Positions 9,842-55,987 of a stretch of DNA of 64,000 nt are shown piece by piece. The notes below the pieces were generated by a model that made no database searches, was not told the DNA's origin, and was given only the letters and a program-made list of their open reading frames with translations. Within the stretch, counting starts at the first letter, position 1, and each line of letters opens with the position of its first letter. The translations under genes were made by a program, and so were the position numbers. The DNA comes from Planctomycetaceae bacterium (GTDB lineage Bacteria > Planctomycetota > Planctomycetia > Pirellulales > UBA1268), in assembly GCA_947459185.1 (NCBI GenBank), contig CANHCU010000006.1, forward strand, positions 424-64,423, given 5' to 3'.

Positions 9842-9887
9842 AATCTGGGGGCGTGACGCTGCCCCCAACTTGGTACCAGCCGGGTTG

Positions 9888-10748
9888 TTAGCCATGCAGG
9901 GCCGGTAGCTGGGCATGCCCAGCTACCGGCCGCGCGAATTCGAACGGCGTCTGGTTGCCCAGAGCGCCATGCGGACGCACGCGATTGTAATCGTCCCTCC
10001 AAGCTTCTGTCACGGTCCGTGCTTCATCGAGTGACAGGAACCAGTGCCTGTTCAAGCACTCGTCGCGAAGCCGACCATTGAACGACTCGATGAACGCATT
10101 GTCCGTGGGCTTTCCTGGCCTGCTGAAGTCGAGCTTCACGCCGTTGAAGTACGCCCACAGATCCAAGCTCCTCGAGATGAACTCCGGTCCATTGTCGACT
10201 CGAATCGTCTGCGGCTTGCCACGCTGTGAAGCCACCCCCTCCAAGACCCGCACAACATCGTCTCCAGTCAATCGCTGACCGACGTCGATGGCCAGGCTCT
10301 CACGGCTATGGTTATCCACTAACGTCAGCAACCGGAATCGCTGCCAGCCGACCAGCTGATCGGCCACGAAGTCCATGCTCCAACTCTCGTTGGTCTGCGC
10401 GGTCGGTGGACGTGCCTCGCGGACCGGGACGCTCTTCCGACGACGTGGCTTTCGCCGCCTGATTCGGAGGCCTTCTTCGCAGTACAGCCGATACACGAGC
10501 TTCTTGTTCACGAGCCACCCTTCACGACGCAGAAGAACCCAGAGCCGCGGATATCCGAACTGCACCCGACTGGCCGCCAGGTCTCGAAGTCGTACGCGAA
10601 GCTCGGCCCGCGGATTACGCCTGCTCCGGTAACGGTTGGTCGTTCGGGAAAACCCGAGCACCCGACAGGCTCGACGCTCGGCAACCCGGTACGCCACCTG
10701 CATCTCCCGTACCAGAACACGCTGCACCGCGGGCCTCACAGTTTTTTT
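9888..10748 (-). CDS. IS3 transposase OrfB (DDE integrase core), expressed by -1 frameshift as OrfAB
   Basis: WSMDFVADQL, IRVDNGPEFIS and DNAFIESFNGRLRDECLN are present. The frame is open upstream through the AAAAAAA run at 10742-10748. Confidence 0.8.
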   Translation of the reverse strand, partial: KKTVRPAVQRVLVREMQVAYRVAERRACRVLGFSRTTNRYRSRRNPRAELRVRLRDLAASRVQFGYPRLWVLLRREGWLVNKKLVYRLYCEEGLRIRRRKPRRRKSVPVREARPPTAQTNESWSMDFVADQLVGWQRFRLLTLVDNHSRESLAIDVGQRLTGDDVVRVLEGVASQRGKPQTIRVDNGPEFISRSLDLWAYFNGVKLDFSRPGKPTDNAFIESFNGRLRDECLNRHWFLSLDEARTVTEAWRDDYNRVRPHGALGNQTPFEFARPVAGHAQLPALHG

Positions 10749-11002
10749 GAGAGCACGTCCTGCAGCATCTTCTTGTCGAGGCTCAAGTCCGCCACCAGCT
10801 GCTTGAGCTTCTTGTTCTCCTCTTCCAAGATCCGAAGCCGTCGCAACTCGGCAATCCCGAGCCCTGCGAACCGCTTCTTCCATCGGTAGAAGGTCTGCTC
10901 GCTGATCCCGAGCTTGCGGATGATCTCGGCCACCGAAGTGCCCGACTCGGCCTGCCTCAGCGCGAACGCAATCTGCTCTTCTGTGAAATGCTTCTTTCCC
11001 AT
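10736..11002 (-). CDS. IS3 transposase OrfA (HTH plus leucine zipper)
   Basis: MGKKHFTEEQIAFALRQAESGTSVAEIIRKLGISEQTFYRWKKRF...LEEENKKLKQLVADL. It ends just after the A7 slippery site. Confidence 0.85.
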   Translation of the reverse strand: MGKKHFTEEQIAFALRQAESGTSVAEIIRKLGISEQTFYRWKKRFAGLGIAELRRLRILEEENKKLKQLVADLSLDKKMLQDVLSKKL

Positions 11003-11315
11003 CCGAAAAACCCACCCTTTCTGGTGATGCCAAGGTTAAAAAACCTAACAACCCGGCTGGTACCAAGTTGGGGGCAGCGTCAGGCACGCTCGTAAGCCTC
11101 CGTCAGGAGGGCTCGTAGTTCGGGGCAGACCGGCACTACCCGGACGGACGACGGCTGCACCGGGAATTACGGCCCCTTGCGTGTCGGTGACTGCTCCGGC
11201 AATCGTGGCCTGTGGGGTCTGGGCGCTCATAGCCCAAGCAGCGGCCAGGAACATCATCGAGAATGTACCAAGCGAGTTAATCGCTCACTTGCATCGAGTC
11301 CATTCGATTCCAGCG

Positions 11316-22693: not shown

Positions 22694-22848
22694 ACCGGCG
22701 CTCTCCCCTACCCTCGGGGACGTGCGTGGTCGCTGTTCAGAGGCATTCGCAAGTTCGGCAGTCACCAGCGATAGCACTGCCTCCCGCTATGACTCGGGAA
22801 TCCGCATGCCCGCCACGAGAGCGACCGCAGGAGCGAGCAACTCGATGT
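22694..22848 (-). repeat. small-ORF-bearing dispersed repeat, copy 2 (truncated, with an in-frame stop)
   Basis: The minus strand reads IELLAPAVALVAGMRIPES*REAVLSLVTAELANASEQ. It shares the left-flank block ACCGGCGCTCTCCCCT with copy 1 and breaks off at GAGCAACTCGATG. Confidence 0.65.
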
Positions 22849-23444
22849 TGCAGAGCATCGGCAAGGCGAGCCGCGTGTTTGAGCTCGGCGTGTGGCAAGG
22901 AGGGAGCGCCGCGCGGTGGGCGCTGACAATGCGCCTCACTCGCTACGTCGGGATCGACTGCCGCAGCGTTGATCTGCTTTTTGCAGAGAGTCTGCGGCGG
23001 CATCCGCGATGGGGCGCCGTGCGTCTCCATGGCAATATCCCGCAGGCCGATCGGGAATCGCTTCGTCGCATCGCCGACGAGGATTTCGACGGACCGCTGG
23101 ATGTGGTCGTGGATGACGCCTCACACATGTACGCTGACTCACTGGCATCTTTCGACACCCTCTTTCCGAGGTTGCGTCCTGGGGGCATATACCTCATCGA
23201 GGACTGGGCATGGGCACATCGCCCCCGCTCTCAGGGCCCTGACGCGTAGTGGGCGAATGAGCCAGCCCTGTCGAACCTCGTCATGCGGCTGGTCATCCTC
23301 TCGGCCTCGCGGTTCGACTTGGTACCGAGCATCCTCATCCGGCCTGGCTTCGTGGCTGTCACGAACGGAAGGGTTGAGATTGGCGACGACTTCGACACGG
23401 ATCGCCTCATCGTTGCGCGCGGACGGAAGCTGTCGCTTCTCTGA
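22845..23444 (+). pseudogene. class I SAM-dependent methyltransferase interrupted by an in-frame TAG
   Basis: VFELGVWQGGSA (motif I), VVDDASHMY and GGIYLIEDW precede a TAG at 23247-23249. The same frame continues for 64 further codons (WANEPALSNLVMRLVILSASRF...) to the TGA at 23442-23444. The N-terminus abuts repeat copy 2. Confidence 0.6.
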
Positions 23445-23610
23445 TCGACCTGCCCGCGTAAGCGAGGCCACATTCAACGCGACCGGTAGGCCAAAGCGCT
23501 CATCGACGAACTCAAGAGCGACGAGCCGAGCACAATCCCCGGGACGAATGGCAACGGGGCCCGGGGCCTACGCACGGAACAGATCGTTACCCCACAAACT
23601 CCCACACGGG

Positions 23611-24171
23611 TCACCATTTTACGATTCCTCGCATCACTTTGAAGCCACCAACAAGCGTTGAACCTCCATATTCCTTGGCCAAACGGAGGAGGGTTTTGTG
23701 AAATCCGCAATTGGGAAATGTGGATTCGACTTTGGCTATAGCGGATCTGGGTATTCCCTTGCGGCACCAACCTTGCGTTGCGTCTATCCAATCGGCTTTA
23801 CGGCATGCCTCAATGACGTCCGCGTGCATTCCTTCGTACTTGAACACCTTGTGGTGCCAGTGGATCGCGCCACGTAAAGCGTCTGGGTCCAATCCCCAAC
23901 CGTTTTTATCGTTGTCCCTGAGAGCGACAGTTTCTGAGGGCTCCAAATAAGCCAATTCCTGATCTGTCCAAAGCCCGATGTCGTGATAGACGAACGCGGT
24001 TTCCACCATCTGCTCGTGTTCAGCCGCGTTGTCCAGAAAGTGCATGGCGTATGTGATGCAACGGTACACGTGGTTTCGATAGCCATCAAAGTCTTGGCCA
24101 ATCAGAGTTCGGTACGGTGCGAACAACTCTTCAACACGGGGGCGTTCAATCTTGATGGTGCTGTCAAGCAA
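23611..24171 (-). CDS. HD-domain-like phosphohydrolase family protein
   Basis: NHVYRCITYAMHF...AFVYHDIGLW...AIHWHH. The region is visibly lower in GC. Confidence 0.65.
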   Translation of the reverse strand: MLDSTIKIERPRVEELFAPYRTLIGQDFDGYRNHVYRCITYAMHFLDNAAEHEQMVETAFVYHDIGLWTDQELAYLEPSETVALRDNDKNGWGLDPDALRGAIHWHHKVFKYEGMHADVIEACRKADWIDATQGWCRKGIPRSAIAKVESTFPNCGFHKTLLRLAKEYGGSTLVGGFKVMRGIVKW

Positions 24172-24291
24172 GATACATCTGCTTTCTTGGAGTACACTCC
24201 GGCATTATTGAGAACGACCGCGATCAGTGGCTCGCGATCTAAAGATTCGCCACACCACCTGGGTTCATCACGATTCCACAGCATCGCGTGG

Positions 24292-24636
24292 TTAGAGCAT
24301 CGCTGCCAACATCGCCCCGCCAACGCTCGCCTCGAAAAGGATACCAACCACATTGTGCCACGACCGGCTCCCGTCGACGGCCAAGGACAACACTCGGGCC
24401 GCGGCCGCAGCGCACCAAGCGGCACCCACGACGGTGAAGGCAGAAGGAGATTGGGCTACGAAGCATCCAGTGCCGAGGCACAGGAAAAACCCGCCGTATG
24501 TGGCGCGGACTTCGGAAACGCCGAGCGGCCCCTGCGTACCAACGCCCAGAACTCGACAAACGGCAGCGGGAAAAAGCATGCCGAGGCACCCGAGCAATGC
24601 GGTTACGAGGGCTCCACAGTTCGCTAAAAGCATCAT
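24292..24636 (-). CDS. small membrane protein (DUF4345-like)
   Basis: Four hydrophobic segments; RATYGGFFLCLG resembles DUF4345 proteins. Confidence 0.5.
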   Translation of the reverse strand: MMLLANCGALVTALLGCLGMLFPAAVCRVLGVGTQGPLGVSEVRATYGGFFLCLGTGCFVAQSPSAFTVVGAAWCAAAAARVLSLAVDGSRSWHNVVGILFEASVGGAMLAAML

Positions 24637-24782
24637 CTTAAGCCGCCACTTTCGTCGCTCCCACCAGTGGTTTGCGAAGCGGTGAAATACGCTTCACATG
24701 CTGGAGAACCCTCCGCAGGCATCACGCTCGATCACTTTCAAGTTTCACCGCAGCATCCAGATCGATCAACCTCGGTTCCCGC

Positions 24783-24821
24783 TGACCTGCCCCCGGAATA
24801 CGGCACTCCAGTCAGAGAGAG
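24783..24821 (+). repeat. 38-bp IS-end-like motif, copy b
   Basis: TGACCTGCCCCCGGAATACGGCACTCCAGTCAGAGAGAG. It is inverted relative to copy c at 32333-32371. Confidence 0.55.
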
Positions 24822-24976
24822 CATCCGGAGTGGTGAGTCACGGCCCGGCTTCCCCGATTTCCGCGGAAAACCCGACCACGGCAACGCAACTGTGAGCGAG
24901 TTAGGATAGCGAATCTCCCCGAACATCCGAGCCGCTTCGCTGCTTACCCCCGGCAGCCCACACTATTCGTGCGACG

Positions 24977-25891
24977 ATGATCAGTCCACTGAACTCTGTC
25001 GCAGACTCGAACATTCCTCGACCTCGCTTCAGCGTGATCGTGCCGGTCTTGAACGGGGCCCGCTGGTTGCCCGATACGCTTGCCGCGATCGAGTCCCAAA
25101 CATTTCCGGCGGAGGCCACCGAGGTTCTGTTCATCGACAATGGCTCCACCGATGACTCGGTAGCGATTCTCATCCGCCACCCTCGCGTCCGCGTGCTCCA
25201 CGAGCCTCGTCGCGATCCATACCTGGCTCGGAATCGTGGCATCGAAGCGGCTAGCGGCGAGTACCTCGTCTTCCTGGATGCCGACTGTCCTCCGCACGTC
25301 GACTGGCTCGCCGAGTTCGACCGGTCGATTAACCAGGCGCCGGCCGACGTGCTCGTCGGCACTCTGCTTCACCCCGCCAAGTCACCCCTGATGCTGAAGT
25401 GCTACGAGGCTTACTACAACACGAAGATCGCGTGGCTCTTCGCACACGGCCGGACGGCGAACTTCTTCGGGCATGCCGGAAACATGGTCGTCCGCCGCGA
25501 CATATTCACCGATATCGGCTTGTTCGAAGCGATGCCGATCGTTGGAGATACCGAGATCATCCACCGGCTGCTGCACAGCAGGGCGGACGCGGTCATCCGT
25601 TTCGTGCCCCGGGCTCGGGTCGTGCACGCCGAGGTCGACTCGGTCGGTGCCCTGATGGCCAAACTGTACGCGATCGGCATGTACACCCAGAACCTCGTGC
25701 CTCGAGGCGGATACCGTCCCGTATCGCTGCAGGACAAGGTCTGCATCGCAGCCAACTCCATACGATCCCTGCCACTCGGGCTGCTCGGTGTAGTCCCCCT
25801 GGTCACGGTGCTCGGCTGCGGATGGGCGGTATACCTTTCGGGGCGGCTCACCGCGGCCCTGAACGCACTCACGGCGAGGCGGGGTGCCTGA
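24977..25891 (+). CDS. family 2 glycosyltransferase with C-terminal TM segments
   Basis: RFSVIVPVLNGARWLPDTLAAIESQ...VLFIDNGSTDDS...YLVFLDADCPP. It is a paralogue of 53763-54611. Confidence 0.9.
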   Translation: MISPLNSVADSNIPRPRFSVIVPVLNGARWLPDTLAAIESQTFPAEATEVLFIDNGSTDDSVAILIRHPRVRVLHEPRRDPYLARNRGIEAASGEYLVFLDADCPPHVDWLAEFDRSINQAPADVLVGTLLHPAKSPLMLKCYEAYYNTKIAWLFAHGRTANFFGHAGNMVVRRDIFTDIGLFEAMPIVGDTEIIHRLLHSRADAVIRFVPRARVVHAEVDSVGALMAKLYAIGMYTQNLVPRGGYRPVSLQDKVCIAANSIRSLPLGLLGVVPLVTVLGCGWAVYLSGRLTAALNALTARRGA

Positions 25892-25990
25892 CGATTCGGT
25901 CCAGAGGTCCGGCAGCCCCCGCCGTAGGATGACAGACCTCTCACAACCCCCGTTTGACAGTGTCGCATCAGCGACCGCAGGACGCATGGT

Positions 25991-27163
25991 ATGCAGGGTA
26001 TCCGTTACGTCAGCGAGGCTCCCACGACAGGCTTCGGCCGCGCCGCGAGGGAATACATGCGGCAGTTGGCCGCGCGTGGCATCCCGCTCACTTGGACGCC
26101 GATGGTCCCCGGACGAGGATGGGGACGGTCGCTCGAGCCCTTTCTCGGGCGGGACTGGCCTGACGAGACCTTCGGCCCGTTGACGAACCGTCCGATCGAA
26201 TACGACACGGTGATCCTTCATCTCCAGCCAGACGACATGCTGCGCTGGCGGATCGAGGAGCCCACCCGAGCGACCATCGGCATGACTTCGTGGGAATTCG
26301 ACCGCGTGCCGGGCCACTGGCCCCGCATCCTCAACTCGCTGCGAGGCGTGGTCGTGCCGTGCCGATGGAATAACGCATCGTTCTTGGCCGGCGGCGTCAG
26401 CGTCCCGATGGCGGTGATCCCCCACCTCGCCCCACCTCTACGCCCGGGGCCGTCGCTCCATCTGCCCGGCGTGCGAGATGACGACTTCGTGTTTTATTCA
26501 ATCGCGGCCTGGAGGGAACGGAATGCGCCGCATCTCGCCCTGGAGGCATTCCTGCGTGAATTTTGCGGAACGGACCGTGTGGCGATGGTTCTCAAGACAT
26601 CACGCATCAACGAACGCCGCCCGTACCGTGGCTTCTTCAATTATCACGTTCGCCGCCACTTCGATACCACGCTCCGGCAGGTCACGGCCATCCGTCGCCG
26701 GTGCGAGTCGGACGCACGGACAGTCGTGCTGCTGGACGACCTCGACGACGCGGGGATCGCGGCACTGCACGCCCGCGGCGATGCTTATGTGTCGCTGACA
26801 CGCACCGAGGGATGGGGCCTCGGCGCGTACGAAGCCGCCTGGGCGGGCAATCCGGTCATCATCACTGGCCATGGCGGTCAACTCGACTTTCTCCCGCCAC
26901 ACGAAACACTCTTCGTCGATCATGCGACGGTGCCGTTTCACGACCCGTTTTTCCATCCGTCGGAGCCCCTGAACCGCCTTGGCGTGACGTGGGCGAATCC
27001 CGATGTCGCGATGGCGGGGAGGCTCATGCGTCTCTTGGCAGCCGACCCAGCTGCCGCGAGACAGCGCGGGGCCGTCCTGCGTGCGCACGTCGAGGAGCGA
27101 TTCGCGTCAGCCCCGGTGATGAATCGACTCCTGGACTTCCTGAACCACACATGCGGGACATGA
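25991..27163 (+). CDS. GT-B fold glycosyltransferase (GT4-like)
   Basis: The C-terminal half reads ALHARGDAYVSLTRTEGWGLGAYEAAWAGNPVIITGHGGQLDF (EX7E-type region). Confidence 0.8.
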   Translation: MQGIRYVSEAPTTGFGRAAREYMRQLAARGIPLTWTPMVPGRGWGRSLEPFLGRDWPDETFGPLTNRPIEYDTVILHLQPDDMLRWRIEEPTRATIGMTSWEFDRVPGHWPRILNSLRGVVVPCRWNNASFLAGGVSVPMAVIPHLAPPLRPGPSLHLPGVRDDDFVFYSIAAWRERNAPHLALEAFLREFCGTDRVAMVLKTSRINERRPYRGFFNYHVRRHFDTTLRQVTAIRRRCESDARTVVLLDDLDDAGIAALHARGDAYVSLTRTEGWGLGAYEAAWAGNPVIITGHGGQLDFLPPHETLFVDHATVPFHDPFFHPSEPLNRLGVTWANPDVAMAGRLMRLLAADPAAARQRGAVLRAHVEERFASAPVMNRLLDFLNHTCGT

Positions 27164-28329
27164 CCCGGAATCGATCGCGAGAATCAGCCATGGCGCCCGA
27201 CACGAAACCGTCGCTCCTTTTCCTCTCCCCGTGCACGCCACGTGATGGGCACACGGGGCTGGCGATGAGGGCGTTGGCCACGTCGCAACACCTCAGAAGG
27301 CGACATGACGTCGAGGTCGCCGCAATTGACAGCTTCGGTAGCGATTTCGGCACGCGGCTCCGCCGATGCGTTCGGTTCTGGGCTCCGGCGATCGCGGCGT
27401 ACCTCCCTGGGGCACCGTCGGACTGGACGGCAGCCAACGCACCCACGGTCGCCGCGGTAACCCGCCGCAATTTTGATCGCGTGCACGTGTTCCGGCTCGC
27501 CATGGCTCCGTGTGCCAGTGCGTTTTTCGGCAGGTGCCGATGCGACCTCGATCTCGACGAGTTGGAATCATGGACGCGGCGAGACATCGCCGCGTTGGCG
27601 CACCGCAACCGGCACTACGGATTGGCGGCGGCGCTGTCCAGCGAGGCGGCGTTCTACGAACGCGCCGAGCGCGAGTGGCTGCCGCGATTCGACAGGGTCT
27701 TCACCGCTTCGCGGGCCGAGGCGGAACGTGTTGCGGCGGTAGCTCCGGGCGTCGATGTTCGCATCGTGCCCAACGTGACCTTTGTCACGCCGAAGACGCC
27801 GACGCTCCGACAGAGCGAGGACTTCACGCTGCTCTTCGTGGGCAATCTGGGCTATTACCCGAACCACGACGCCGTCGTCCATCTCATCCGCGACATTCTT
27901 CCGCGATGGAATGCCCACCGCCACGGCGCAGTCCGCTTGGTGGTGGCCGGCGGAGGGGCATCTCCACGTCTGCAAAAACTCATGGCGCGAGTGCCCGGCG
28001 TCGAGTACCGCGGTTTCATGGAGCTGTTAACGTCGGCCTACTCGCAGGCCGACGTGGCCATCGTGCCGCTCCGGGCCGGCGGAGGCACGCGACTGAAGAT
28101 CCTCGAGGCGTTCGCCCACGAGGTGCCGGTCGTGGCCACCACGAAGGCGGCCGAAGGACTCGATGTCGTGGACGGAAGGGAATGCCTCGTGGGCGACACG
28201 CCCGACGCGATCGTGCATGCCTGCGAACGGCTTCTGGAGAACCGGTCGCTGGGTTCCAGCCTGGCCGCGCAGGCGCTCGCCTACGTCGAGTCACGCCACG
28301 GCCCGTCCGCGCTCGACAGCCTGGACTGA
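27160..28329 (+). CDS. family 4 glycosyltransferase
   Basis: LLFVGNLGYYPNHDAV...AIVPLRAGGGTRLKILEAFAHEVPVVATTKAAEGL. The start is 27151, 27160 or 27190; 27160 gives an ATGA overlap with the upstream stop. The 588-aa track ORF is an upstream extension. Confidence 0.85.
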   Translation: MTRNRSRESAMAPDTKPSLLFLSPCTPRDGHTGLAMRALATSQHLRRRHDVEVAAIDSFGSDFGTRLRRCVRFWAPAIAAYLPGAPSDWTAANAPTVAAVTRRNFDRVHVFRLAMAPCASAFFGRCRCDLDLDELESWTRRDIAALAHRNRHYGLAAALSSEAAFYERAEREWLPRFDRVFTASRAEAERVAAVAPGVDVRIVPNVTFVTPKTPTLRQSEDFTLLFVGNLGYYPNHDAVVHLIRDILPRWNAHRHGAVRLVVAGGGASPRLQKLMARVPGVEYRGFMELLTSAYSQADVAIVPLRAGGGTRLKILEAFAHEVPVVATTKAAEGLDVVDGRECLVGDTPDAIVHACERLLENRSLGSSLAAQALAYVESRHGPSALDSLD

Positions 28330-28462
28330 CGCCGCGTCTGTCGGGAGGCGATGCGATCCCCATCGCCGGCGGCGAGCTTTGACGCCGTCGCGAAATCAGC
28401 GATAGTACGGATATGCCCCTCCGACCGGTGACCGTACGGCCCCTCGAGGACGACCTGGAGAA

Positions 28463-30076
28463 ATGGCTGTCGCGACACCAACGGGCGTGCCCCGGATCAT
28501 CCACCAAACGTGGAAGGATGCGCATCCGCCAACCGCCAAGGGTGACCCGGAGAGCTGGCGTCGCCTGAACCCCGGATGGGAATACCGCCTCTGGACCGAC
28601 GAGGATCTGCTCGCCTTCATGACGCGGGAGTGGCCGGAGCTCCTCGACATGTACCTCGCGTATGCGAGACCTGTTCAGCGGGCCGACCTGGCGAGGTACT
28701 GCCTTCTTCGGCGGTTTGGCGGCGTCTATGCCGACATCGACACGCGGTGCCTCTCCCCGCTTGAGCCGCTCGCCGGTGATCCTCGCGTGGTTCTATGCGA
28801 GGAGCCGCCGGAGCACTTCGAGCCCGCTCTCGCCCGCGGCCTGGGGCGGATGTTCTTCAACGGCACCATGGCCAGCCCGCCGGGCCATGCCTTTTGGGAC
28901 GACGTCATCGCCTTGTGCCGCACGATGTTTCCGCGACGTGACGGTGACGTGTTGGAGACGACCGGCCCGCTGCTGCTGACCGCGGCGGTGCTCCAATGGC
29001 CCGCCCAGGATCGTCTGTCACTGAATTCCTGTCATTGCTTCGCGCGGCTGACGGCTGCCGGCAGCGACTCGTCCGCCGTTCCCTCGGGCTGCTACGGCGA
29101 CACGGTGTTCTCCGAACATCTCTGGCAGGGAAGTTGGTACAAGCGTCGCCGGGAGTTGATCCACACCCGCACTCTGGGCAGGGCGCGGCGGGCGCTGCAC
29201 CAGTTCACCGCTCGGCCGACACTGTCGTTCGCCGAGGCCAGCCGTGCGATCGACGTGGACCTGCTCACGAGGCCACTCCACGACGTCGGAAGCCGTCCGC
29301 GGATCGCCATCCTCATCCCGGCCCGGGACGCCGCCGGCTGTCTCAGGGCGAACTTCTCGGCAATACGCGGCCTCGATTACCCGCTGGACCGCATCACGGT
29401 GATCTACGGCGTGGGCGAGAGCACCGACGGCACGGAGGACATCGTCGCCGACCTGCTTCGCGAGCACAGGACGCGATTCGCGGGCATGCGGTCTGTCGCC
29501 GCGTCGTCCGGCACGCGGGCCCCGCCACATGACCGACGCTGGTTGCCCAAGTTCCAACGCCGCCGCCGGGCTGGCATCGCCCGCGCCCGAAACGCCCTCA
29601 TGCGGGAGGCTCTGGCGGAGCCGGTGGACTGGTTCCTGTGGCTCGACGCCGACGTCGTGGGCCTGCCATCCGACCTCATCCAGCGACTGCTGGAGGCCGA
29701 GTCAAAAATCGTGGTGCCGGACTGCGTTCTTGAACCCGGAGGGCCGAGCTACGACCTCAATGCATTTCTCGAGGTGGGCACGCCCACGGTCGCCACCTAC
29801 TACCGGCATTGCCGGTACGGTCTGTTCCAGCCGCCGGCACGGTACTGGGAACGCAGGCACCTCGACGATCTCCGCTACCTGCACCGCACGCCGCTGCACG
29901 GCGTCGGCGGCACCGCGCTGTTCGTGCACGGCGACGTGCATCGGGCGGGACTGGGGTTCCCCGAGATTCCCTATCGTGACCTGCTGGAGACGGAAGCCTT
30001 CGGCATCCTGGCCCGTGATTGCGGCCTCGTGCCGATGGGCCTGCCACGTGTGACGGTGATCCATGCGCGAGCCTGA
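28463..30076 (+). CDS. two-domain glycosyltransferase: N-terminal GT32 (DXD sugar-binding region) plus C-terminal GT2/Anp1-like domain
   Basis: N-terminus: RIIHQTWKD...ADLARYCLLRRFGGVYADIDTRC. C-terminus: RIAILIPARDAAGCL...VIYGVGESTDGTEDIV...WFLWLDADVVGLP. Confidence 0.8.
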   Translation: MAVATPTGVPRIIHQTWKDAHPPTAKGDPESWRRLNPGWEYRLWTDEDLLAFMTREWPELLDMYLAYARPVQRADLARYCLLRRFGGVYADIDTRCLSPLEPLAGDPRVVLCEEPPEHFEPALARGLGRMFFNGTMASPPGHAFWDDVIALCRTMFPRRDGDVLETTGPLLLTAAVLQWPAQDRLSLNSCHCFARLTAAGSDSSAVPSGCYGDTVFSEHLWQGSWYKRRRELIHTRTLGRARRALHQFTARPTLSFAEASRAIDVDLLTRPLHDVGSRPRIAILIPARDAAGCLRANFSAIRGLDYPLDRITVIYGVGESTDGTEDIVADLLREHRTRFAGMRSVAASSGTRAPPHDRRWLPKFQRRRRAGIARARNALMREALAEPVDWFLWLDADVVGLPSDLIQRLLEAESKIVVPDCVLEPGGPSYDLNAFLEVGTPTVATYYRHCRYGLFQPPARYWERRHLDDLRYLHRTPLHGVGGTALFVHGDVHRAGLGFPEIPYRDLLETEAFGILARDCGLVPMGLPRVTVIHARA

Positions 30077-31082
30077 CGAGCCCGACCAGTTCAAGCCGCC
30101 GCCACTCGACGTCGTCTTCACTTGGTGCGACGAATCCGACCCAGTCTTCCAGTCCGACATCCGCCGATACCGGACGGTATCGCAGTCCGCGGAGGCCGCC
30201 GGATCCGCACGCTTTCGCACCTACGACGAACTGAGGTACTCGCTCCGTGCACTCGACATGCACGCTCCCTGGATCAGGAACGTGATTCTGGTCACCAATG
30301 ACCAGACGCCGCACTGGCTCGATCGCGGGGCCCCGGGCGTCCGCGTCGTCTCGCATCGCGACCTCTTCGAGGACCATTCGCACCTGCCGTGCTTCAATTC
30401 GCTCGCTATCGAGATGAGCCTCCACCGTATCCCGGACCTGTCGGAATGGTTTCTCTATTTCAACGACGACTTCTTCATAGGAAACACGCTCTCGCCCCGG
30501 GCGTTTTTCTCGCCCGAAGGCCAGCCGCTTTTTTTCGTGGAGAACTACCCACTGCCAGCCCCGCGGGCCCCGTGGTTTCCAGGTCGAGACGAGGATCTCA
30601 TGAAACGGTGCCACCGCTACAACCATCGGCTGCTGCGGGCATTGCTACCCGGGCTACAGGATGCCCGTGATCCGACGCACACGCCGCAACTGTACGAGCG
30701 GGAGGGCCTTCGTCGCCTCGCACGACATTGGGCGAACGAGATTCGGGCCACTCAGGCCTGCCGCTTCCGCGAACCACACAATACCAAGCTAGCAGTGCTC
30801 TATCCGTCGTTCGTCGCCGCATCGGCAGAACCGGAGAGGCGGTGCTTGCAGCGAACGATTTACAACGGCTCTTCCGAATACCTCTTCAGGACCGTCCGCG
30901 ACCGTGACGTCGACGAGTTGGAGCGATGGCTCGCCGAGATCGAGGCCGAGCGTCCGAACTTTTTCTGCGTGAACGATTCCGTCGAAGCCCCCTCGGTGGC
31001 CGAACGAATGCTGTATCACTACCGGGCGATGCTCGAACGAATGTTTCCGCGGCCGTCTCGATGGGAACAAGTCTTGCCATGA
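30063..31082 (+). CDS. Stealth-family protein (capsule-type hexose-1-phosphate transferase)
   Basis: CR1 DVVFTWCDESDP; CR2 DELRYSLRALDMHAPWIRNVILVTNDQTPHWL; CR3 FNSLAIEMSLHRIPDLSEWFLYFNDDFF. Confidence 0.85.
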   Translation: MREPDEPDQFKPPPLDVVFTWCDESDPVFQSDIRRYRTVSQSAEAAGSARFRTYDELRYSLRALDMHAPWIRNVILVTNDQTPHWLDRGAPGVRVVSHRDLFEDHSHLPCFNSLAIEMSLHRIPDLSEWFLYFNDDFFIGNTLSPRAFFSPEGQPLFFVENYPLPAPRAPWFPGRDEDLMKRCHRYNHRLLRALLPGLQDARDPTHTPQLYEREGLRRLARHWANEIRATQACRFREPHNTKLAVLYPSFVAASAEPERRCLQRTIYNGSSEYLFRTVRDRDVDELERWLAEIEAERPNFFCVNDSVEAPSVAERMLYHYRAMLERMFPRPSRWEQVLP

Positions 31083-32101
31083 CCCAGCCGTCCGTCATCC
31101 ACATCGCGATCTACCTCGACGAAGGCTACGCGGTGCCCGCGACGGTTCTGGTGCGATCGATGCTGGACAACCTTGGCCCCTCGCCAGCGGTGCACCTTCA
31201 CGTGCTGGGCCTCGGAATCGGAGACACCACCAAGCGCACGATGGCCGCAAGTTGGCCTGCCGACCGCGTCGTGGTCCATTGGGTCGATGTCGATTGGCGC
31301 GACTACGAGGGTGTCTATCTGCCGACCGGCTATTTGTCGTCCGCGGCCTATGCACGGCTCCTCATCGATCGCCACCTACCCGCGGACGTGGAAAAAGTGC
31401 TCACGATCGACTCCGATGGCATCGTCCTCGGCGATATCGCGGAATTGTGGCGGCTCACTCCGCGGCGGTCGTGCCTCATGGCGGTACGGGACTCCTTCGT
31501 GAGAACGCTGCGCGACGACACGTCGGAGTTTATTCAGCGCGACTGCACCACCCCCACCGCTCCATACTTCAACAGCGGGCTCATGCTCATCAATACGAAA
31601 CGGTGGCGGGACCTCGGCGTCGCGCAGCGGTGCTTCGAACTCGCATCCCGGTATCCGGGAAAGGCGGTCATCGGAGACAACTCCCTGCTCAACGCGGTCC
31701 TCGCAGGCGACTGGGAGCCATTGCCGCTGCGGTGGAACTGCAACACCCGACACTTAGCGATCCACTCCTATCCGTCGATCCGCGGCCACGTGCACGCCCC
31801 CGCCGAGGTGGCCGACGCCCTACGGCATCCGGGCTTTCTCCATTTTGTTTCCGGCCGTAAGCCGTGGGATGCCCGGTGGTATCACCCCGACGGCGAAATC
31901 TATCGCCGCTATGTGGCCCAGACGGAATGGCCCGACCAGCAACTCGCGGTCACGGGACGGCAGTGGCGATGGGACGCCACCGCCTTCGGCTGGCTCTGCT
32001 ACCGCCAAGCAGCGGAGACACGCGGTCGGTGGCGCAAGTCTGGAAAGCGAACGGCGGACCTCGTCCATTTCATGAAACGTCTGGTGACCGATGGGGAATA
32101 A
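31079..32101 (+). CDS. family 8 glycosyltransferase (RfaJ/LgtC-like)
   Basis: IHIAIYLDEGYAVPATVLVRSML, YARLLIDRHLP, TIDSDGIVLGDIAELW, YFNSGLMLINTKRW. ATGA overlap with the Stealth stop. Confidence 0.9.
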   Translation: MTQPSVIHIAIYLDEGYAVPATVLVRSMLDNLGPSPAVHLHVLGLGIGDTTKRTMAASWPADRVVVHWVDVDWRDYEGVYLPTGYLSSAAYARLLIDRHLPADVEKVLTIDSDGIVLGDIAELWRLTPRRSCLMAVRDSFVRTLRDDTSEFIQRDCTTPTAPYFNSGLMLINTKRWRDLGVAQRCFELASRYPGKAVIGDNSLLNAVLAGDWEPLPLRWNCNTRHLAIHSYPSIRGHVHAPAEVADALRHPGFLHFVSGRKPWDARWYHPDGEIYRRYVAQTEWPDQQLAVTGRQWRWDATAFGWLCYRQAAETRGRWRKSGKRTADLVHFMKRLVTDGE

Positions 32102-32141
32102 CTGCCCGCCAGGGCCTTTCCTAAGCCGCTCTTGCGGGTTT

Positions 32142-32336
32142 TCAACCAGCGCTGCCCCGCGTCAGATCAGCGACCACCCGCGGGAGGACTGCGGCCCGCT
32201 CAGCCTCGGCCAGATTCATGCCGGCCACGAGGATCACAGCGCGGGCGATTACGGCGATCCGATCGGCCGAAATCGCGTCGCATTTCGCGTCGCAGTGGGA
32301 CGCGACTCTTCGATTTCCCGAGCGGGCAAAAACCTA
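32142..32336 (-). repeat. small-ORF-bearing dispersed repeat, copy 3 (5'-truncated, no start codon)
   Basis: The minus strand reads VFARSGNRRVASHCDAKCDAISADRIAVIARAVILVAGMNLAEAERAAVLPRVVADLTRGSAG*, preceded by an in-frame TAG. Confidence 0.7.
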
Positions 32337-32371
32337 AGTTAGCATCGGGCGTCATTCATGGGGGCAGGTCA
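32333..32371 (-). repeat. 38-bp IS-end-like motif, copy c
   Basis: The reverse complement reads TGACCTGCCCCCATGAATGACGCCCGATGCTAACTTAGG. Confidence 0.55.
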
Positions 32372-32483
32372 TGCTGTTTCGGCTTCCGCGGTCGCGCTGA
32401 TAGGGCTTAGCCGGAACGAGCACAGCAAGTTGACCAAGATATTTGGCGACCTGAAAGACAAACTATAAGAGTGGAACCATTTT

Positions 32484-33467
32484 GTGAACTGGCTCATACA
32501 TAAGATTCATCGCGTCGTGTTCTTCAGGACACCTATCGGTGAAGTGTGGTCAATTCTTTACGGCTTGTACCTGCACCTGAGGTTTTCCTTCAACGATAGG
32601 TCACCCGGAAAAGATAGAGCAAAGCTCACATACTATCTTACCAAGCACTGCCATATTCTCGAAAAAGGGCTTGCGTTGCCAGCGCCAAGGGCCGGCTTCG
32701 GGCAAAAACAAATTATTGATCTGATCGAAAAGACAAGATCGTACGAAAGCTTGCACGGCAAGGACACCGTGACAAAAGTGGTACGCGACACCATTCGTGA
32801 ATACATTTCCTTCCACGAAAAGAATCCGCATGCATTGCCGCGAGAATTTCTTTGCTTGATCCTGGGGTTTGTGGAAGAGGAAGAGTCGGCCGGCAAGGGT
32901 GGACTTAAGACCCTTGAAAAGAAGATGTGGGGAAGCTACTCACTGGAAACCTTTAAACACTTTCTAACTTGCAGGCACAGCGTAAGGGATTTCAGTAACA
33001 CTCCCATCGGAGATGCGACGATCCAGGAAATAGTTCATGTAGCCCTCAACACGCCGTCTGTCTGCAATCGTCAGGGCTGGATGATTCACTATTACAACAA
33101 TGAAGCTGAGATCAAGACCCTGCTTGGATATCAGAATGGCAACGCAGGCTTTACCGATTGCATAAATAGGCTCCTGATTGTTACTGGCAATATCAAGGCA
33201 TTCACTCGGTATGAGCACAATCAGCTCTTTGTTGATGGTGGTTTGCTATCCATGAATATCATGCTTGCATTGCATTCCGCTGGTCTGGGGTCGTGCCCCC
33301 TCAATACGTGCATGCCATCTTACAAAGAAGAAATCCTGAAGAAGGCAGCCAAGATTCCGATGAATGAAAAACTGATCATGATGATTGCCGTTGGTAGCCT
33401 CAAGGATAAGTTCAGCGTGACTCAGTCGGACAGGTACGAACTTGACCACGTACTAAAGGCTCACTGA
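32484..33467 (+). CDS. nitroreductase family protein
   Basis: CRHSVRDFSNTPI...ALNTPSVCNRQGW...DGGLLSMNIMLALHSAGLGSCPLN. GTG start. Visibly AT-richer codon usage. Confidence 0.8.
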   Translation: MNWLIHKIHRVVFFRTPIGEVWSILYGLYLHLRFSFNDRSPGKDRAKLTYYLTKHCHILEKGLALPAPRAGFGQKQIIDLIEKTRSYESLHGKDTVTKVVRDTIREYISFHEKNPHALPREFLCLILGFVEEEESAGKGGLKTLEKKMWGSYSLETFKHFLTCRHSVRDFSNTPIGDATIQEIVHVALNTPSVCNRQGWMIHYYNNEAEIKTLLGYQNGNAGFTDCINRLLIVTGNIKAFTRYEHNQLFVDGGLLSMNIMLALHSAGLGSCPLNTCMPSYKEEILKKAAKIPMNEKLIMMIAVGSLKDKFSVTQSDRYELDHVLKAH

Positions 33468-33471
33468 CCCG

Positions 33472-34593
33472 ATGAAAATCGCCATCATGACCCAGCCGCT
33501 GGGCGACAATTACGGCGGCATCATGCAAGCTTGGGCGCTCCAACAGGTGCTCAAGAAAATGGGCCATGAGCCGGTGACCATAGATCGGCGGCCTGAGCAA
33601 CGCAGCGCAACCTACAAAGCTGCCCGCCTGGCCTATAGGGTGGCGATGAAAGCCGTAGGGAAACGCAAGAGACCAATTTATTTCGAGCGCCACCTGCCCA
33701 CCCTGCTGCAGCACACACGGAGCTTTATCAATCAGCACATAGCAATGTCGGAACCTCTGTCCAACACCGAGGCGCTCAGAGCACATTTCGATCGAAGCCA
33801 ATACGATGCGGTGATCGTGGGCAGTGACCAGACCTGGCGGCCGCGCTATTCGCCCAATATCTATAACTTCTTTCTTGACTTCCTGCAGGACAAGCCTATC
33901 AGGCGCATTGCTTATGCCTCGTCTTTTGGAGTGGACGAATGGGAATTCACTAAAATCCAAACACGACGTTGCGCAGAACTGGCCAAGCGGTTTGACGCCA
34001 TCAGCGTAAGGGAAGATTCAGGGGTAGAACTCTGCCGCAAGCATCTTGCTGTTGAAGCAACTGCGGTGTTGGACCCAACCCTGCTGCTCAACAAGCAAGA
34101 CTACGAGCAACTGCTAGGTCCAGGCCGGTTAGGCGGCGCACCCAAGGGGGTGTACACCTACTTTCTTGACAAGACCCCGGGGAAATTGGCATTGGCAAAG
34201 CAAGCCAGCAAAGAGCTCGGGGAGCCAATCTATTCCTGTCAAGCGAAATACGGCTTCGGCGAAGATGCCGACGATTGGCTGACCGGCTGTACCAAGCCCA
34301 ACATTAAAGACTGGCTGGCTGGCTTTGCCAACGCCAGGTTCGTGCTGACGGATTCATTTCATGGCCTGGTTTTTTCAATAGCCTTCAGGCGCCCTTTTAT
34401 TGCAGTCAAGAATGCCAGTCGCGGTAATGCAAGGTTCATGTCTTTATCCAGAGCCACTGGATATACGGCACATCTCAAGGAGCAGAGTTGTGATCGGCCC
34501 ATCTCATTGTTTGCCGAGCAACTTGCTGAGCCGACAGATGCCTTTCATGTACTTCGTTCATTTTCATCGGAGTATATAAGGACAGCGCTGTGA
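33472..34593 (+). CDS. polysaccharide pyruvyl transferase family protein
   Basis: MKIAIMTQPLGDNYGGIMQAWALQQVLKKMGHEP...VIVGSDQTWRP...TDSFHGLVFSIAFRRPF. Confidence 0.85.
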   Translation: MKIAIMTQPLGDNYGGIMQAWALQQVLKKMGHEPVTIDRRPEQRSATYKAARLAYRVAMKAVGKRKRPIYFERHLPTLLQHTRSFINQHIAMSEPLSNTEALRAHFDRSQYDAVIVGSDQTWRPRYSPNIYNFFLDFLQDKPIRRIAYASSFGVDEWEFTKIQTRRCAELAKRFDAISVREDSGVELCRKHLAVEATAVLDPTLLLNKQDYEQLLGPGRLGGAPKGVYTYFLDKTPGKLALAKQASKELGEPIYSCQAKYGFGEDADDWLTGCTKPNIKDWLAGFANARFVLTDSFHGLVFSIAFRRPFIAVKNASRGNARFMSLSRATGYTAHLKEQSCDRPISLFAEQLAEPTDAFHVLRSFSSEYIRTAL

Positions 34594-35360: not shown

Positions 35361-36068
35361 TGCGACGGGTATCGAAGGCTGTGGATGCTCTTGCGCCGCG
35401 AAGGATGGCTCGTGAACAAGAAGCTCGTCTACCGGCTGTACTGCGAAGAAGGGCTGGGAATCAGGCGGTGAAAGCCACGTCGGCGGAAGAGCGTCCAGGT
35501 ACGGGAGGTACGGCCGCCGACCGGGCAGACCAATGAGAGCTGGAGCATGGACTTCATGGCCGATCAACTGGTCGGCGGGCAGCGGTTCCGGCTGCTGCAG
35601 TTAGTCGATAACCACAGCCGTGAGAGCCTGGCGATTGAGGTCGGCCAGCGGCTGACCGGAGACGATGTCGTTCGGGTCTTGGAGCGGGTCTCGATGGTGC
35701 GTGAAAGCCGCAGACAATTCGAGTCGATAACGGTCCCGAGTTCGTCTCGCAGAGCTTGGATCTGTGGGCGTACTTCAACGGCGTGAAGCTCGACTTCAGC
35801 AGACCGGGAAAGCCCACGGATAACGCCGTGATCGAGTCATTCAACGGCAGGCTTCGCGACGAGTGCTTGAACCAGCACTGGTTCTTGTCGCTCGACGACG
35901 CGCAAGCCGTGACACAAGAGTGGAGCGAGGACTACAATTGAGTCCAACCGCACGGTGCTCTGGGCAACCGCACGCCGTCGGAGTTCGCTAGGCCGTTAGA
36001 TGGGCATGCCCATCTAACGGCCCTGCATGGCTAACAACTCGGCTGGCACCAAGTTGTGGGCAGCGTCC
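35361..36068 (+). mobile_element. IS3-family relic (3' two-thirds of orfB plus right IR, with stops and frameshifts)
   Basis: GWLVNKKLVYRLYCEEGLGIRR*, WSMDFMADQLVGGQRFRLLQLVDNHSRESLAIEVG and KLDFSRPGKPTDNAVIESFNGRLRDECLNQHWF are present. The IR-like end GGCTAACAACTCGGCTGGCACCAAGTTGTGGGCAGCGTC finishes at 36067. Confidence 0.8.
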
Positions 36069-36080
36069 CAACCACAGACT

Positions 36081-36119
36081 CTCTCTCTGAAAGTGGCGAC
36101 GTTCATGGGGGGCAGGTCA
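36081..36119 (-). repeat. 38-bp IS-end-like motif, copy d
   Basis: The reverse complement reads TGACCTGCCCCCCATGAACGTCGCCACTTTCAGAGAGAGA. Its tip lies 51 bp outside the IS relic tip. Confidence 0.55.
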
Positions 36120-36245
36120 ATGGATACCCTGGTGATAGATACTGGATCCATTCATGTCATGGGGGCATGTCACGGATCGGTGAAGGAAGGCGGGCGACGG
36201 TTCACATTTGCTCGCGTCGGAGAGTGAATGTAGCATCGAGAACGG

Positions 36246-55975: not shown

Positions 55976-55987
55976 CTGAGCAAAACC

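What the first reader, a model, noticed from the sequence alone, without database searches (positions are those of the whole stretch)
24783..32371. 7.6-kb Stealth/glycosyltransferase cassette bounded by inverted IS3-end-like 38-bp repeats (mobile-insertion-cassette-like)
TGACCTGCCCCC... at 24783-24821 and its reverse complement ...GGGGGCAGGTCA at 32333-32371 face each other as terminal inverted repeats. The outer 12 nt are perfectly inverted and the tips are TG...CA, as in IS3-family ends. They enclose exactly the six co-directional genes 24977-32101 plus small-ORF repeat copy 3, and no transposase lies inside. The motif resembles the 38-bp IR of the intact IS in this window (TGACGCTGCCCCCAACTTGGTACCAG versus TGACCTGCCCCCATGAATAACGCCAG). 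The unit therefore has the formal structure of a passenger-only cassette that a related transposase could move in trans. The flanking triplets are CGC (24780-24782) and TGC (32372-32374), so there is no clean target-site duplication.
Basis: partly seen in the sequence, partly recalled or inferred. Interest (0 to 1): 0.68.

Follow-up and report, generated by a model that had tools for sequence, protein, structure and literature searches.

The report
Dead IS ends flank glycosyltransferase operon
The two inverted repeats are real leftover ends of an IS3/IS407-type insertion sequence, but related strains carry one end without the other, so they are relics of separate insertions around an ordinary sugar-polymer operon and not the ends of a mobile cassette.

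Summary
24783-24833 (+) and 32322-32371 (-) are true IS3-family/IS407-group terminal repeats with tips TGACCTGCCCCC...GGGGGCAGGTCA. A complete 1287-bp reference copy from another Planctomycetota genome shows that the left stump is the IRL type and the right stump the IRR type of the same IS species. The topology is therefore formally correct. They enclose six glycosyltransferase genes (GT2, two GT4, GT32/Anp1, Stealth, GT8) and no transposase.

The mobile-cassette reading fails the available tests:
- There is no target duplication.
- Such stumps are dense, at least six in 64 kb, so a tips-outward neighbouring pair is expected (about 0.9).
- The two flanks are not halves of one target. The left flank continues into unrelated DNA in one relative. 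The right flank is the 3' end of a 507-aa gene that is intact in others.
- The ends assort independently among strains. Two relatives (97% and 94% identical) have IRL plus operon but no IRR. Another has the IRR (115 nt) with only GT2 and no IRL. A third has the IRR without GT8 beside it. More distant relatives have the operon with neither end.

Best reading: two eroded IS copies mark breakpoints in a mosaic, IS-riddled glycan locus of a freshwater Pirellulales. This is ordinary biology. One junction remains unexplained.

The parts
24783..24833 (+). 51-nt stump of the left inverted repeat (IRL type) of an IS3-family/IS407-group IS, called 'IS-AD' here. The tip is at 24783 and reads inward.
   Evidence: nhmmer against an IRL-type profile built from 8 other genomes gives E = 2.3e-5 over positions 1-49. 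It is 73% identical to the IRL of the complete 1287-bp copy in L125. The same stump is present in L004, L343 and L344.
24977..25891 (+). GT2-family glycosyltransferase, gene 1 of the operon.
   Evidence: Pfam Glycos_transf_2, E = 7.8e-26. Gene call in L001.
25991..27163 (+). GT4-like glycosyltransferase, gene 2.
   Evidence: Pfam GT4-conflict and Glycos_transf_1, weak. Gene call.
27190..28329 (+). GT4 glycosyltransferase, gene 3.
   Evidence: The gene call in L001 carries Glycos_transf_1 and Glyco_trans_1_4. An ORF I first tried in another frame (27510-28382) had no Pfam hit.
28463..30076 (+). Two-domain glycosyltransferase (Gly_transf_sug DXD domain plus Anp1-like), gene 4.
   Evidence: Pfam Anp1 E = 2.1e-30 and Gly_transf_sug E = 5.9e-14.
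30063..31082 (+). Stealth-family protein (CR1-CR4), a putative hexose-1-phosphoryltransferase, gene 5.
   Evidence: Pfam Stealth_CR2 E = 1.5e-41, with CR1, CR3 and CR4 also hit.
31079..32101 (+). GT8 glycosyltransferase, gene 6.
   Evidence: Pfam Glyco_transf_8 E = 3.6e-32. Gene call.
32102..32321 (+). Copy 3 of the 'R' repeat (small-ORF repeat). It is cut short here and continues about 120-200 nt further in relatives.
   Evidence: L278, L279 and L343 align through about 32306-32309 and then continue as a full R copy.
32322..32371 (-). 48-50-nt stump of the right inverted repeat (IRR type) of IS-AD. The tip is at 32371.
   Evidence: nhmmer against the IRR-type profile gives E = 6.5e-14. It is 84% identical to the reference IRR. 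The same tip|TGCT junction occurs in L340, L345 and L346, where 50 nt (plus a type C fragment) or 115 nt of the IS remain.
32372..32468 (+). Last ~32 codons of a 507-aa membrane-protein gene, truncated exactly at the IS tip.
   Evidence: L341 aligns from exactly 32372. tblastn matches residues 478-506 of the L341 protein to 32376-32462. The N-terminal ~475 codons are absent from the window.
32484..34593 (+). Nitroreductase-like gene plus polysaccharide pyruvyl transferase. This low-GC block is shared with strain K, L340, L341 and L342 but is not seen next to the operon in L343 or bin47.
   Evidence: Pfam. GC 0.51-0.57 against about 0.64 for the window. Best genome relatives are Pseudomonas at 63%, then Advenella and Balneolales at 57%.
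22848..24782 (.). Left flank 'LF' (GC 0.58, hypothetical ORFs). It ends at the IRL tip.
   Evidence: L336 matches 23701-24780 at 91.9% and then continues with unrelated DNA and no IR. L338 and L339 match to about 24686 and then carry an inverted IS-AD 5' remnant.
9853..11083 (-). Intact IS3-family IS of a different species ('type C') with 38-bp perfect IRs, orfA at 10736-11002 and orfB running to 9888.
   Evidence: Pfam HTH_Tnp_1, HTH_21, rve and rve_3.
9803..9852 (+). IRL-type IS-AD stump, with the type C IS inserted at its inner edge.
   Evidence: nhmmer E = 4.1e-13.
35366..36172 (-). Truncated type C IS (35366-36067), followed by an IRL-type stump (tip 36119) and a 'type B' IR stump (tip 36172). 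This is a triple nesting.
   Evidence: nhmmer D profile E = 6.5e-13 and B profile E = 9.1e-11.
55860..56025 (-). Type C IS fragment (55860-55975) plus an IRR-type IS-AD stump (55980-56025).
   Evidence: nhmmer A profile E = 1.2e-16.

Best explanation
The interval is a conserved six-gene glycosyltransferase operon. It sits inside a glycan-biosynthesis super-locus of at least 45 kb in a freshwater Pirellulales (Planctomycetota). It happens to be bracketed by the eroded ends of two different copies of one IS3-family/IS407-group insertion sequence.

Proposed history:
- One copy inserted upstream of GT2. It was cut down to a 51-nt IRL stump before this strain split from its 94-97% relatives.
- A second, complete copy inserted into a 507-aa membrane-protein gene of a lower-GC pyruvylation module. 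It was later eaten away from the inside, leaving 48 nt here, 50 nt in L340 and 115 nt in strain K.
- Deletions and recombination at the IS copies and at the dispersed 'R' repeats then joined the modules.

On this reading the stumps are scars that mark strain-to-strain breakpoints. They are not a working pair of transposon ends.

Shown: the identity of the ends, the gene content, the independent distribution of the ends, and the non-matching flanks. Inferred: the order of events, and that the stumps are now inert.
For: (1) The ends are real IS ends of one species.
- A scan of genome contigs found more than 115 loci, mostly Planctomycetota. There the IRR-type sequence is followed by a hairpin and the reverse complement of an rve-type orfB 3' end. 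Many contigs break inside it.
- The 1287-bp copy in L125 has IRL = the left-arm type and IRR = the right-arm type, with HTH_Tnp_1 plus rve/rve_3 ORFs.
- The tip equals the IS407A and ISPa32 IR.

(2) The stumps are dense. Validated stumps lie at 9803+, 24783+, 32371-, 36119-, 36172- and 56025-. A tips-outward neighbouring pair is expected with probability about 0.9.

(3) The ends assort independently.
- L343/L344 (96.8% identical over 24783-32309) and bin47 contigs L004/L278 (about 94%) have the IRL stump and the operon. After GT8 they have a full R copy and no IRR.
- Strain K (L345/L346) has cupin-GT2-200 nt of gene 2 | 115 nt of the IS right end | the same downstream block. It has no IRL, and homology starts at 24948.
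- L340 has IRR | the same block, but a type C fragment and another R copy on the inner side, and no GT8.
- L281 and L282/L283 have the operon with no IR.

(4) The flanks are not one target.
- L336 continues from 24782 into unrelated DNA.
- L341 and L342 continue leftwards from 32372 into the rest of a 507-aa gene.
- There is no TSD.

(5) The operon has the host's GC (0.63-0.68). The block to its right is 0.51-0.57, and its best genome relatives are outside Planctomycetota.

(6) There is precedent. IS407A drives deletions and rearrangements in Burkholderia mallei, is found self-disrupted, and 84% of copies there lack a matching TSD.
Against: - The polarity is exactly that of one IS: IRL on the left, IRR on the right, cargo in the transposase orientation. 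That is roughly a 1 in 8 chance per neighbouring pair.
- Both stumps keep the whole IR length and an intact 12-nt tip.
- Homology to L343, L344 and L004 begins at exactly the IRL tip, and those relatives have a different left neighbour (an R copy). The left flank was therefore exchanged at the tip after the IRL was already a stump. That is easiest to explain if something still acted on that tip.
- Absence of a TSD is weak evidence in this IS group.
- All relatives are metagenome contigs or MAGs. The locus is mosaic, so the order of events is inferred.
Confidence: 0.8

Rival explanations
1. Mobile insertion cassette. The 7.6-kb unit from the IRL stump to the IRR stump is a transposase-less element that was inserted here, or can still be moved, by an IS-AD-type transposase acting in trans.
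For: - The ends are IRL and IRR of one IS species in the correct polarity, with complete IR length and intact tips.
- There is no transposase inside.
- Related genomes carry full copies that could supply transposase (L084 and L125).
- Both tips coincide with homology breakpoints against relatives.
Against: - There is no TSD.
- No second copy and no empty site were found. The left and right flanks belong to two different uninterrupted sequences in L336 and in L341/L342.
- The unit with both ends was seen only in this strain's own contigs, L001-L003.
- The closest relatives have the operon with IRL only. Strain K and L340 have the IRR without the operon's 3' end.
- The segment shared with relatives ends at about 32309-32321. 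That is the inner edge of the IRR stump and not its tip.
- The left stump is only 73% identical to the consensus IRL.
- Among the fetched loci, the only IRL...IRR pairs are a 1287-bp IS and a 1003-bp deleted IS.
Confidence: 0.06
2. Decayed composite transposon. Two complete IS-AD copies in direct orientation once flanked the operon and moved it as IS-operon-IS. Both IS bodies were later deleted, leaving the outer IRL and the outer IRR.
For: - The right stump does descend from a complete IS, because strain K keeps 115 nt with the hairpin and the orfB-distal sequence.
- The outer-end polarity fits.
- The glycan locus is full of IS relics.
Against: - It needs the two copies to have been present together. 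In fact the IRL stump is already a stump in relatives that never show the IRR, and the IRR is tied to the low-GC block in strains without the operon's 3' part.
- The flanks do not match one target site.
- There is no TSD.
Confidence: 0.07
3. The operon is a module bounded by the dispersed 'R' repeat, and R is what changes its neighbours. R-R homologous recombination, or site-specific recombination at the tRNA-3'-end-like segment inside R, swaps modules in the glycan locus. The IS stumps are bystanders.
For: - In L343/L344 and bin47 the operon (with its IRL stump) lies between two direct R copies.
- The window has five direct R copies between glycan modules.
- After the downstream R, each lineage carries a different module. 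L278 has a TylF-like methyltransferase, L343 has other genes, and the window has the IRR plus pyruvylation block.
- R carries a partial tRNA 3' end and terminators, like an att scar.
Against: - No integrase was found in the window.
- There is no tRNA gene in the window.
- In the window the left junction is at the IS tip, not inside R.
- The R copies are only 74-88% identical.
- This view complements the best explanation and does not replace it.
Confidence: 0.25

Closest known systems
IS407 / IS407A (IS3 family, IS407 group) and ISPa32
   Same: - The terminal sequence is identical: TGACCTGCCCCC...GGGGGCAGGTCA.
- The size is about 1.2-1.3 kb.
- The ORFs are orfA (HTH_Tnp_1) and orfB (HTH_21/rve/rve_3).
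- Copies act as breakpoints of deletions and rearrangements, are found disrupted by other ISs, and often lack a TSD.
   Different: - The host is Planctomycetota.
- The internal IR sequence after the 12-nt tip differs.
- I could not query ISfinder, so whether this species is already named is unknown.
- A 4-bp TSD was not seen for the one complete copy I examined.
Mobile insertion cassettes (MIC231 of Bacillus cereus; qnrD and qnrS2 'mic' elements)
   Same: Passenger genes lie between the IRs of a known IS with no transposase. This is the formal definition quoted in PMC3913671.
   Different: - MICs usually show a target duplication and recur at several sites. MIC231A1 was shown to be mobilised in trans by the IS231A transposase (as reported in PMC3913671).
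- Here there is no TSD and no second copy, the flanks do not match one site, and the ends occur separately in relatives.
- At 7.6 kb with six genes, it is also larger than the MICs I know of (own knowledge).
IS-mediated genome mosaicism, as with IS407A in Burkholderia mallei
   Same: IS copies mark the borders of rearranged blocks between close relatives, and recombination between copies erases TSDs.
   Different: Here most copies are reduced to 48-115-nt stumps, and the blocks are modules of one glycan locus.
Targeted insertion next to or into IRs: IS911 'targeted insertion' (title cited), and IS4321/IS5075 into the 38-bp IRs of Tn21-family transposons (own knowledge)
   Same: The second IS of the window (type C) lands at a fixed position and polarity in the IRs of related ISs. 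21 of 54 ends lie 49-52 nt from the tip.
   Different: - The target is the inner edge of IS407-group IRs, both IRL and IRR types.
- The mechanism is untested.
- I cannot exclude that some outer-stump-plus-IS combinations move together.

Membership tests
Mobile insertion cassette (MIC) | Bracketed by inverted repeats that match the ends of a known IS | tested here: met
   The left arm is the IRL type (E = 2.3e-5) and the right arm the IRR type (E = 6.5e-14) of a 1287-bp IS3-family IS.
Mobile insertion cassette (MIC) | No transposase gene between the repeats | tested here: met
   Six genes, all glycosyltransferase or Stealth by Pfam and gene calls.
Mobile insertion cassette (MIC) | Target-site duplication flanking the unit (4 bp expected for the IS407 group) | tested here: not met
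   The flanks are CCGC | ... | TGCT. This is weak on its own, because 84% of IS407A copies in B. mallei lack a matching TSD.
Mobile insertion cassette (MIC) | The same unit at other sites, or an empty site in relatives | tested here: not met
   - The unit with both ends occurs only in the same strain's contigs.
- L336 shows left flank | unrelated DNA.
- L341 and L342 show an intact 507-aa gene across the right junction.
- Relatives carry one end without the other.
Mobile insertion cassette (MIC) | Mobilisation in trans by the cognate transposase | not testable with these tools
   This needs a transposition assay.
IS3 family, IS407 group (parent IS of the stumps) | Terminal IRs ending 5'-TG...CA-3' with the TGACCTGCCCCC tip | tested here: met
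.
IS3 family, IS407 group (parent IS of the stumps) | Two overlapping ORFs: orfA with an HTH, and orfB with a DDE (rve) domain | tested here: met
   In the L125 copy, orfA hits HTH_Tnp_1 at 3.4e-13 and orfB hits HTH_21, rve and rve_3. No such copy is in the window itself.
IS3 family, IS407 group (parent IS of the stumps) | Programmed -1 frameshift signal between orfA and orfB | not tested
   The frames are offset as expected, but I did not look for the slippery motif.
IS3 family, IS407 group (parent IS of the stumps) | 4-bp target duplication | tested here: inconclusive
   The one complete copy examined (L125) has flanks ...TCCG | and | GACT... with no duplication. One copy is not enough.
Composite transposon | Two complete IS copies flanking the cargo | tested here: not met
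   Only 51-nt and 48-50-nt stumps are present. No relative shows two complete copies around the operon.
Stealth protein family (gene 5) | Conserved regions CR1-CR4 | tested here: met
   Pfam hits: Stealth_CR2 at 1.5e-41, CR4 at 1.6e-7, CR3 at 1.7e-6 and CR1 at 2.6e-4.

The most novel reading that the evidence does not exclude
The 51-nt IRL stump is not inert. After it had been truncated, a transposase supplied in trans still used its tip, paired with some right end other than the 32371 IRR, to move the glycosyltransferase operon into a new neighbourhood. The basis is that the left flank differs from that of three relatives exactly at the tip, and ends at the same nucleotide as in L336. That would make IS stumps vehicles for shuffling whole glycan operons in Planctomycetota.
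Probability: 0.1. Interest if true: 0.55.

Novelty: new member of a known kind. Interest (0 to 1): 0.2.

Why it matters
As a mobile cassette it would have been the largest MIC-like element I know of and a route for spreading capsule-like glycan genes. The evidence says it is not one.

What remains is useful but ordinary:
- It is a worked example of how solo IS ends can imitate transposon boundaries in IS-rich genomes.
- It gives a description of an IS407-group IS and its relics in freshwater Pirellulales.
- It shows that the surface-glycan locus of this population is mosaic between strains that are 92-97% identical. Methylation, pyruvylation and glycosyltransferase modules are exchanged at IS scars and at a dispersed repeat.

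Tried and rejected
- I first took the two arms to belong to different IR subfamilies ('A' and 'D') and meant to use that against the cassette. The complete copy in L125 showed they are the IRR and IRL of one IS, so I dropped that argument.
- I considered that the ~50 nt outside the intact IS (9803-9852) is part of that IS. Only 21 of 54 ends in other genomes carry such an outer stump, so it is a preferred target and not an obligatory part.
- A metagenome-contig scan with GT2 found nothing closer than 45%.
- Rfam (gathering thresholds) and the tRNA scan of the window found nothing.
- A promoter and terminator scan at both junctions found no sigma-70-like promoter in or next to the stumps.
- I searched for a family of IRL...IRR-bounded cargo units among about 200 fetched loci. 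I found only a full IS (1287 bp), a deleted IS (1003 bp) and one IRL-IRL pair. The sampling is limited to 8-kb windows.
- I considered that L004 is a chimeric MAG contig. I rejected this because the same R|IRL junction occurs in L343 and L344, which come from two other samples, and because the diverged stump shares no long k-mer with consensus IRLs.
- A possible extra IR at 23446 (CGACCTGCCCGCG) is not supported by any profile.
- The paper on IS911 targeted insertion (PMC2546779) is not held. What I say about it rests on its title and my own knowledge.

Full report
**Source and setting.** The window matches a 278-kb JGI metagenome contig (3300072388, Ga0620610_0000052). L001 is 99.98% identical to 14977-35891. 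PSCyt/PSD/DUF1501/DUF1559 proteins, together with the nearest MAGs, place it in the Pirellulales (Planctomycetota). The nearest MAGs are freshwater Pirellulales bins. From about 11 kb to 56 kb the window is one large glycan-biosynthesis region. It holds GT2, the six-gene operon, a pyruvyl transferase, a GT4::GH99 fusion, GT4, PIG-L, GNAT, BKACE, a Mur-ligase-like gene, an asparagine synthase, GT61, a methyltransferase and another GT2. No integrase was seen.

**Checking the observation.**
- The 12-mer, allowing one mismatch, occurs 9 times in 64 kb against 0.5 expected.
- Between the arms lie six co-directional genes: GT2, GT4-like, GT4, a Gly_transf_sug+Anp1 two-domain enzyme, a Stealth protein with CR1-CR4, and GT8. 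There is no transposase.
- A copy of a dispersed repeat (R, 32102-32321) lies between GT8 and the right arm.
- The flanks (CCGC | ... | TGCT) show no duplication.

**What the arms are.** I scanned one genome per species for TGACCTGCCCCCATGAA and found more than 115 loci, mostly Planctomycetota. In many of them the motif is followed by about 50 conserved nt, a hairpin, and the reverse complement of the 3' end of an rve-type orfB. Many contigs stop a few dozen nt inside it, as multi-copy ISs make assemblies do.

One complete copy (L125, 1287 bp) has this sequence as its IRR. Its IRL is TGACCTGCCCCCCTTAAACAGCACCACTTTCAGAGAGAGAATCTGGTGGTG, followed by a leader and orfA. Its ORFs hit HTH_Tnp_1 and HTH_21/rve/rve_3. 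The tip is the published IR of IS407A, which makes 4-bp duplications, and of ISPa32. I call this IS 'IS-AD'.

Profiles built only from other genomes score the two arms as follows:
- The right arm is a full-length IRR (E = 6.5e-14).
- The left arm is a full-length IRL (E = 2.3e-5).
- The left arm is 73% identical to the reference IRL and the right arm 84% identical to the reference IRR.
- The two arms are 54% identical to each other. The reference IRL and IRR are 62% identical.

**Why it is nevertheless not a cassette.**

*First, density.* Validated stumps of this family lie at 9803+, 24783+, 32371-, 36119-, 36172- and 56025-. With six to eight copies, a neighbouring tips-outward pair is expected with probability 0.89-0.96. 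IS insertions survive only outside an operon, which explains why the arms enclose 'exactly six genes'.

*Second, the flanks.*
- In L336 the left flank (23701-24780, 91.9% identity) runs on from the nucleotide before the IRL tip into unrelated DNA with no IR.
- In L341 (85%) and L342 (83%), homology to the window starts at exactly 32372. It lies inside a 507-aa membrane-protein gene, of which the window keeps only the last ~32 codons. The rest of that gene is nowhere in the window.
- The two junctions therefore belong to two different target sequences.

*Third, and decisive, the ends occur separately in relatives.*
- L343 and L344 come from two samples, on contigs of 44 and 36 kb. L343 is 96.8% identical over 24783-32309. 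Both have R | IRL stump - GT2 at the left junction. In L343, GT8 is followed by a full R copy, then other genes, and no IRR (L344 ends within gene 3).
- The bin47 population (L004, L278-L280, about 94%) shows the same arrangement, with a TylF-like methyltransferase after R.
- Strain K (L345/L346; GT2 94.6%, downstream block 92.9%) has a cupin-like gene, GT2 and the first ~200 nt of gene 2. These are joined to 115 nt of the IS-AD right end (IRR plus hairpin), whose tip abuts the same 507-aa-gene remnant, nitroreductase-like gene and pyruvyl transferase. There is no IRL upstream of GT2, and homology begins at 24948.
- L340 (95.4%) has the same IRR tip | TGCT junction. On the inner side it has a 47-nt fragment of the other IS and a different R copy, and no GT8.
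- More distant relatives keep the operon with no IR. L282/L283 have the same gene order between housekeeping genes. L281 has the first three genes inverted.

The segment shared between the window and its closest relatives runs from the IRL tip to about 32309-32321. That is the inner edge of the IRR stump, so the IRR lies outside the shared unit. The right stump is thus the remainder of an ordinary complete IS that sat in the 507-aa gene and has been eroded to different extents in different strains. The left stump is older and is already a stump in three lineages.

**Composition.** The operon has the host's GC (0.63-0.68). The block from 32372 to about 35.4 kb has 0.51-0.57. Its nitroreductase-like gene has its best genome relatives in Pseudomonas, Advenella and Balneolales at 57-63%. 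The foreign-looking DNA is therefore outside the proposed cassette, not inside it.

**The other IS and the ~50-nt stumps.** The intact IS at 9853-11083 ('type C') is a different IS3-family species with 38-bp perfect IRs. In the window its orfB-distal end lies 50-52 nt inside an IS-AD stump three times. At 36068/36119/36172 three ends are nested.

Across genomes, 21 of 54 such ends lie 49-52 nt inside the tip of another IS407-type IR, always in the same polarity. Ten are the IRR type, nine the IRL type and two a third type. This is a targeted-insertion habit. It may be part of why stumps of about 50 nt are so common, although how the type C copy would then be lost is not shown.

**Mechanism proposed.** Shown: two separate IS-AD insertions, and erosion of the right copy. 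Inferred: deletions from inside the IS copies, and recombination at IS and R copies, joined the operon to a pyruvylation module in this strain, to a methylation module in bin47, and to other genes in L343. IS407A does the same on a larger scale in Burkholderia mallei, where most copies have lost their duplications through recombination.

**What is not explained.** Homology to L343, L344 and L004 starts at exactly the IRL tip. Those genomes have an R copy against the tip, whereas the window has LF, and LF ends at the same nucleotide in L336. The IRL was already a stump when this exchange happened. Three explanations remain open:
- a transposase acted in trans on the stump;
- LF is an element with a defined end that landed beside the tip;
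- an IS that is now lost sat at that position.

**Comparison with known systems.**
- The stumps belong to an IS3-family/IS407-group IS. The tip, the ORFs and the size all fit. The frameshift signal was not examined, and the TSD is inconclusive.
- The MIC definition calls for IRs, no transposase nearby, and usually a target duplication. The interval meets the two structural criteria. It fails on the duplication, on recurrence and on an empty site.
- It is not a composite transposon.

**Verdict.** The repeat observation is real. The mobile-cassette interpretation is not supported. This is ordinary IS archaeology in a mosaic glycan locus. Interest is low (0.2).

Noticed in passing
window 9803-11083, 35366-36172, 55860-56025; loci L093, L142, L159, L170, L182, L194, L295-L335: The intact IS3-family IS of the window (type C) shows position- and polarity-specific insertion into the IRs of other IS407-type ISs. 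21 of 54 ends found across Planctomycetota genomes lie 49-52 nt inside another IS's tip. Three ends are nested at 36068/36119/36172.
   Followed up: partly
window 2920-3378, 22681-22847, 32102-32321, 42208-42399, 50600-50832; L004 729-1182 and 2443-2889; L343 9523-9801 and 17183-17430: A dispersed repeat 'R' is present as five direct copies in the window. It combines a small minus-strand ORF (..CDAxCDAxSADRIELLAxAVVLVAGM.., no Pfam hit), a partial tRNA 3' end (GTTCGGTTCCTGTCCCCGCCA) and terminator hairpins. It sits between glycan-gene modules and brackets the operon in L343/L344 and bin47. It may be an att-like scar or a recombination site.
   Followed up: partly
window 22848-24782 (LF); L336, L337, L338, L339: The 1.2-1.9-kb left flank (GC 0.58, two hypothetical ORFs) recurs in other assemblies in different contexts. 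In L336 it sits next to unrelated DNA, in L337 next to a tRNA gene, and in L338/L339 next to an inverted IS-AD 5' remnant followed by a tRNA. Its right end coincides to the nucleotide in the window and L336. It may itself be a mobile or island-end segment.
   Followed up: partly
window 32372-35365: This lower-GC block holds the 3' end of a 507-aa membrane-protein gene, a nitroreductase-like gene, a polysaccharide pyruvyl transferase and a 259-aa ORF. Its closest genome relatives are outside Planctomycetota. In L341 the same genes follow an acyltransferase and the intact 507-aa gene. This looks like a horizontally acquired pyruvylation module.
   Followed up: partly
L345 1-2362 versus window 36188-38549: In strain K the DNA that lies right of the 36172 IS-end cluster in the window is inverted. 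It sits about 2.5 kb upstream of GT2, and the breakpoint is within 16 nt of the 36172 tip. This is another IS-associated rearrangement between strains.
   Followed up: no
window 9803, 24783 (+) versus 32371, 36119, 36172, 56025 (-): All validated IS-end stumps left of the operon are on the + strand and all those right of it on the - strand. That is 1 of 15 arrangements for 2 + and 4 -. It is weak and may be chance or an orientation bias.
   Followed up: no
window 45774-45832: A solitary copy of the subterminal palindrome of the type C IS (GGCCGGTAGCT..AGCTACCGG) lies here without the rest of the IS. It is next to a synteny break against L004, whose alignment stops at 45756.
   Followed up: no
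window 37652-40894: A 1080-aa ORF fuses a GT4 glycosyltransferase domain with a GH99-like domain.
   Followed up: no
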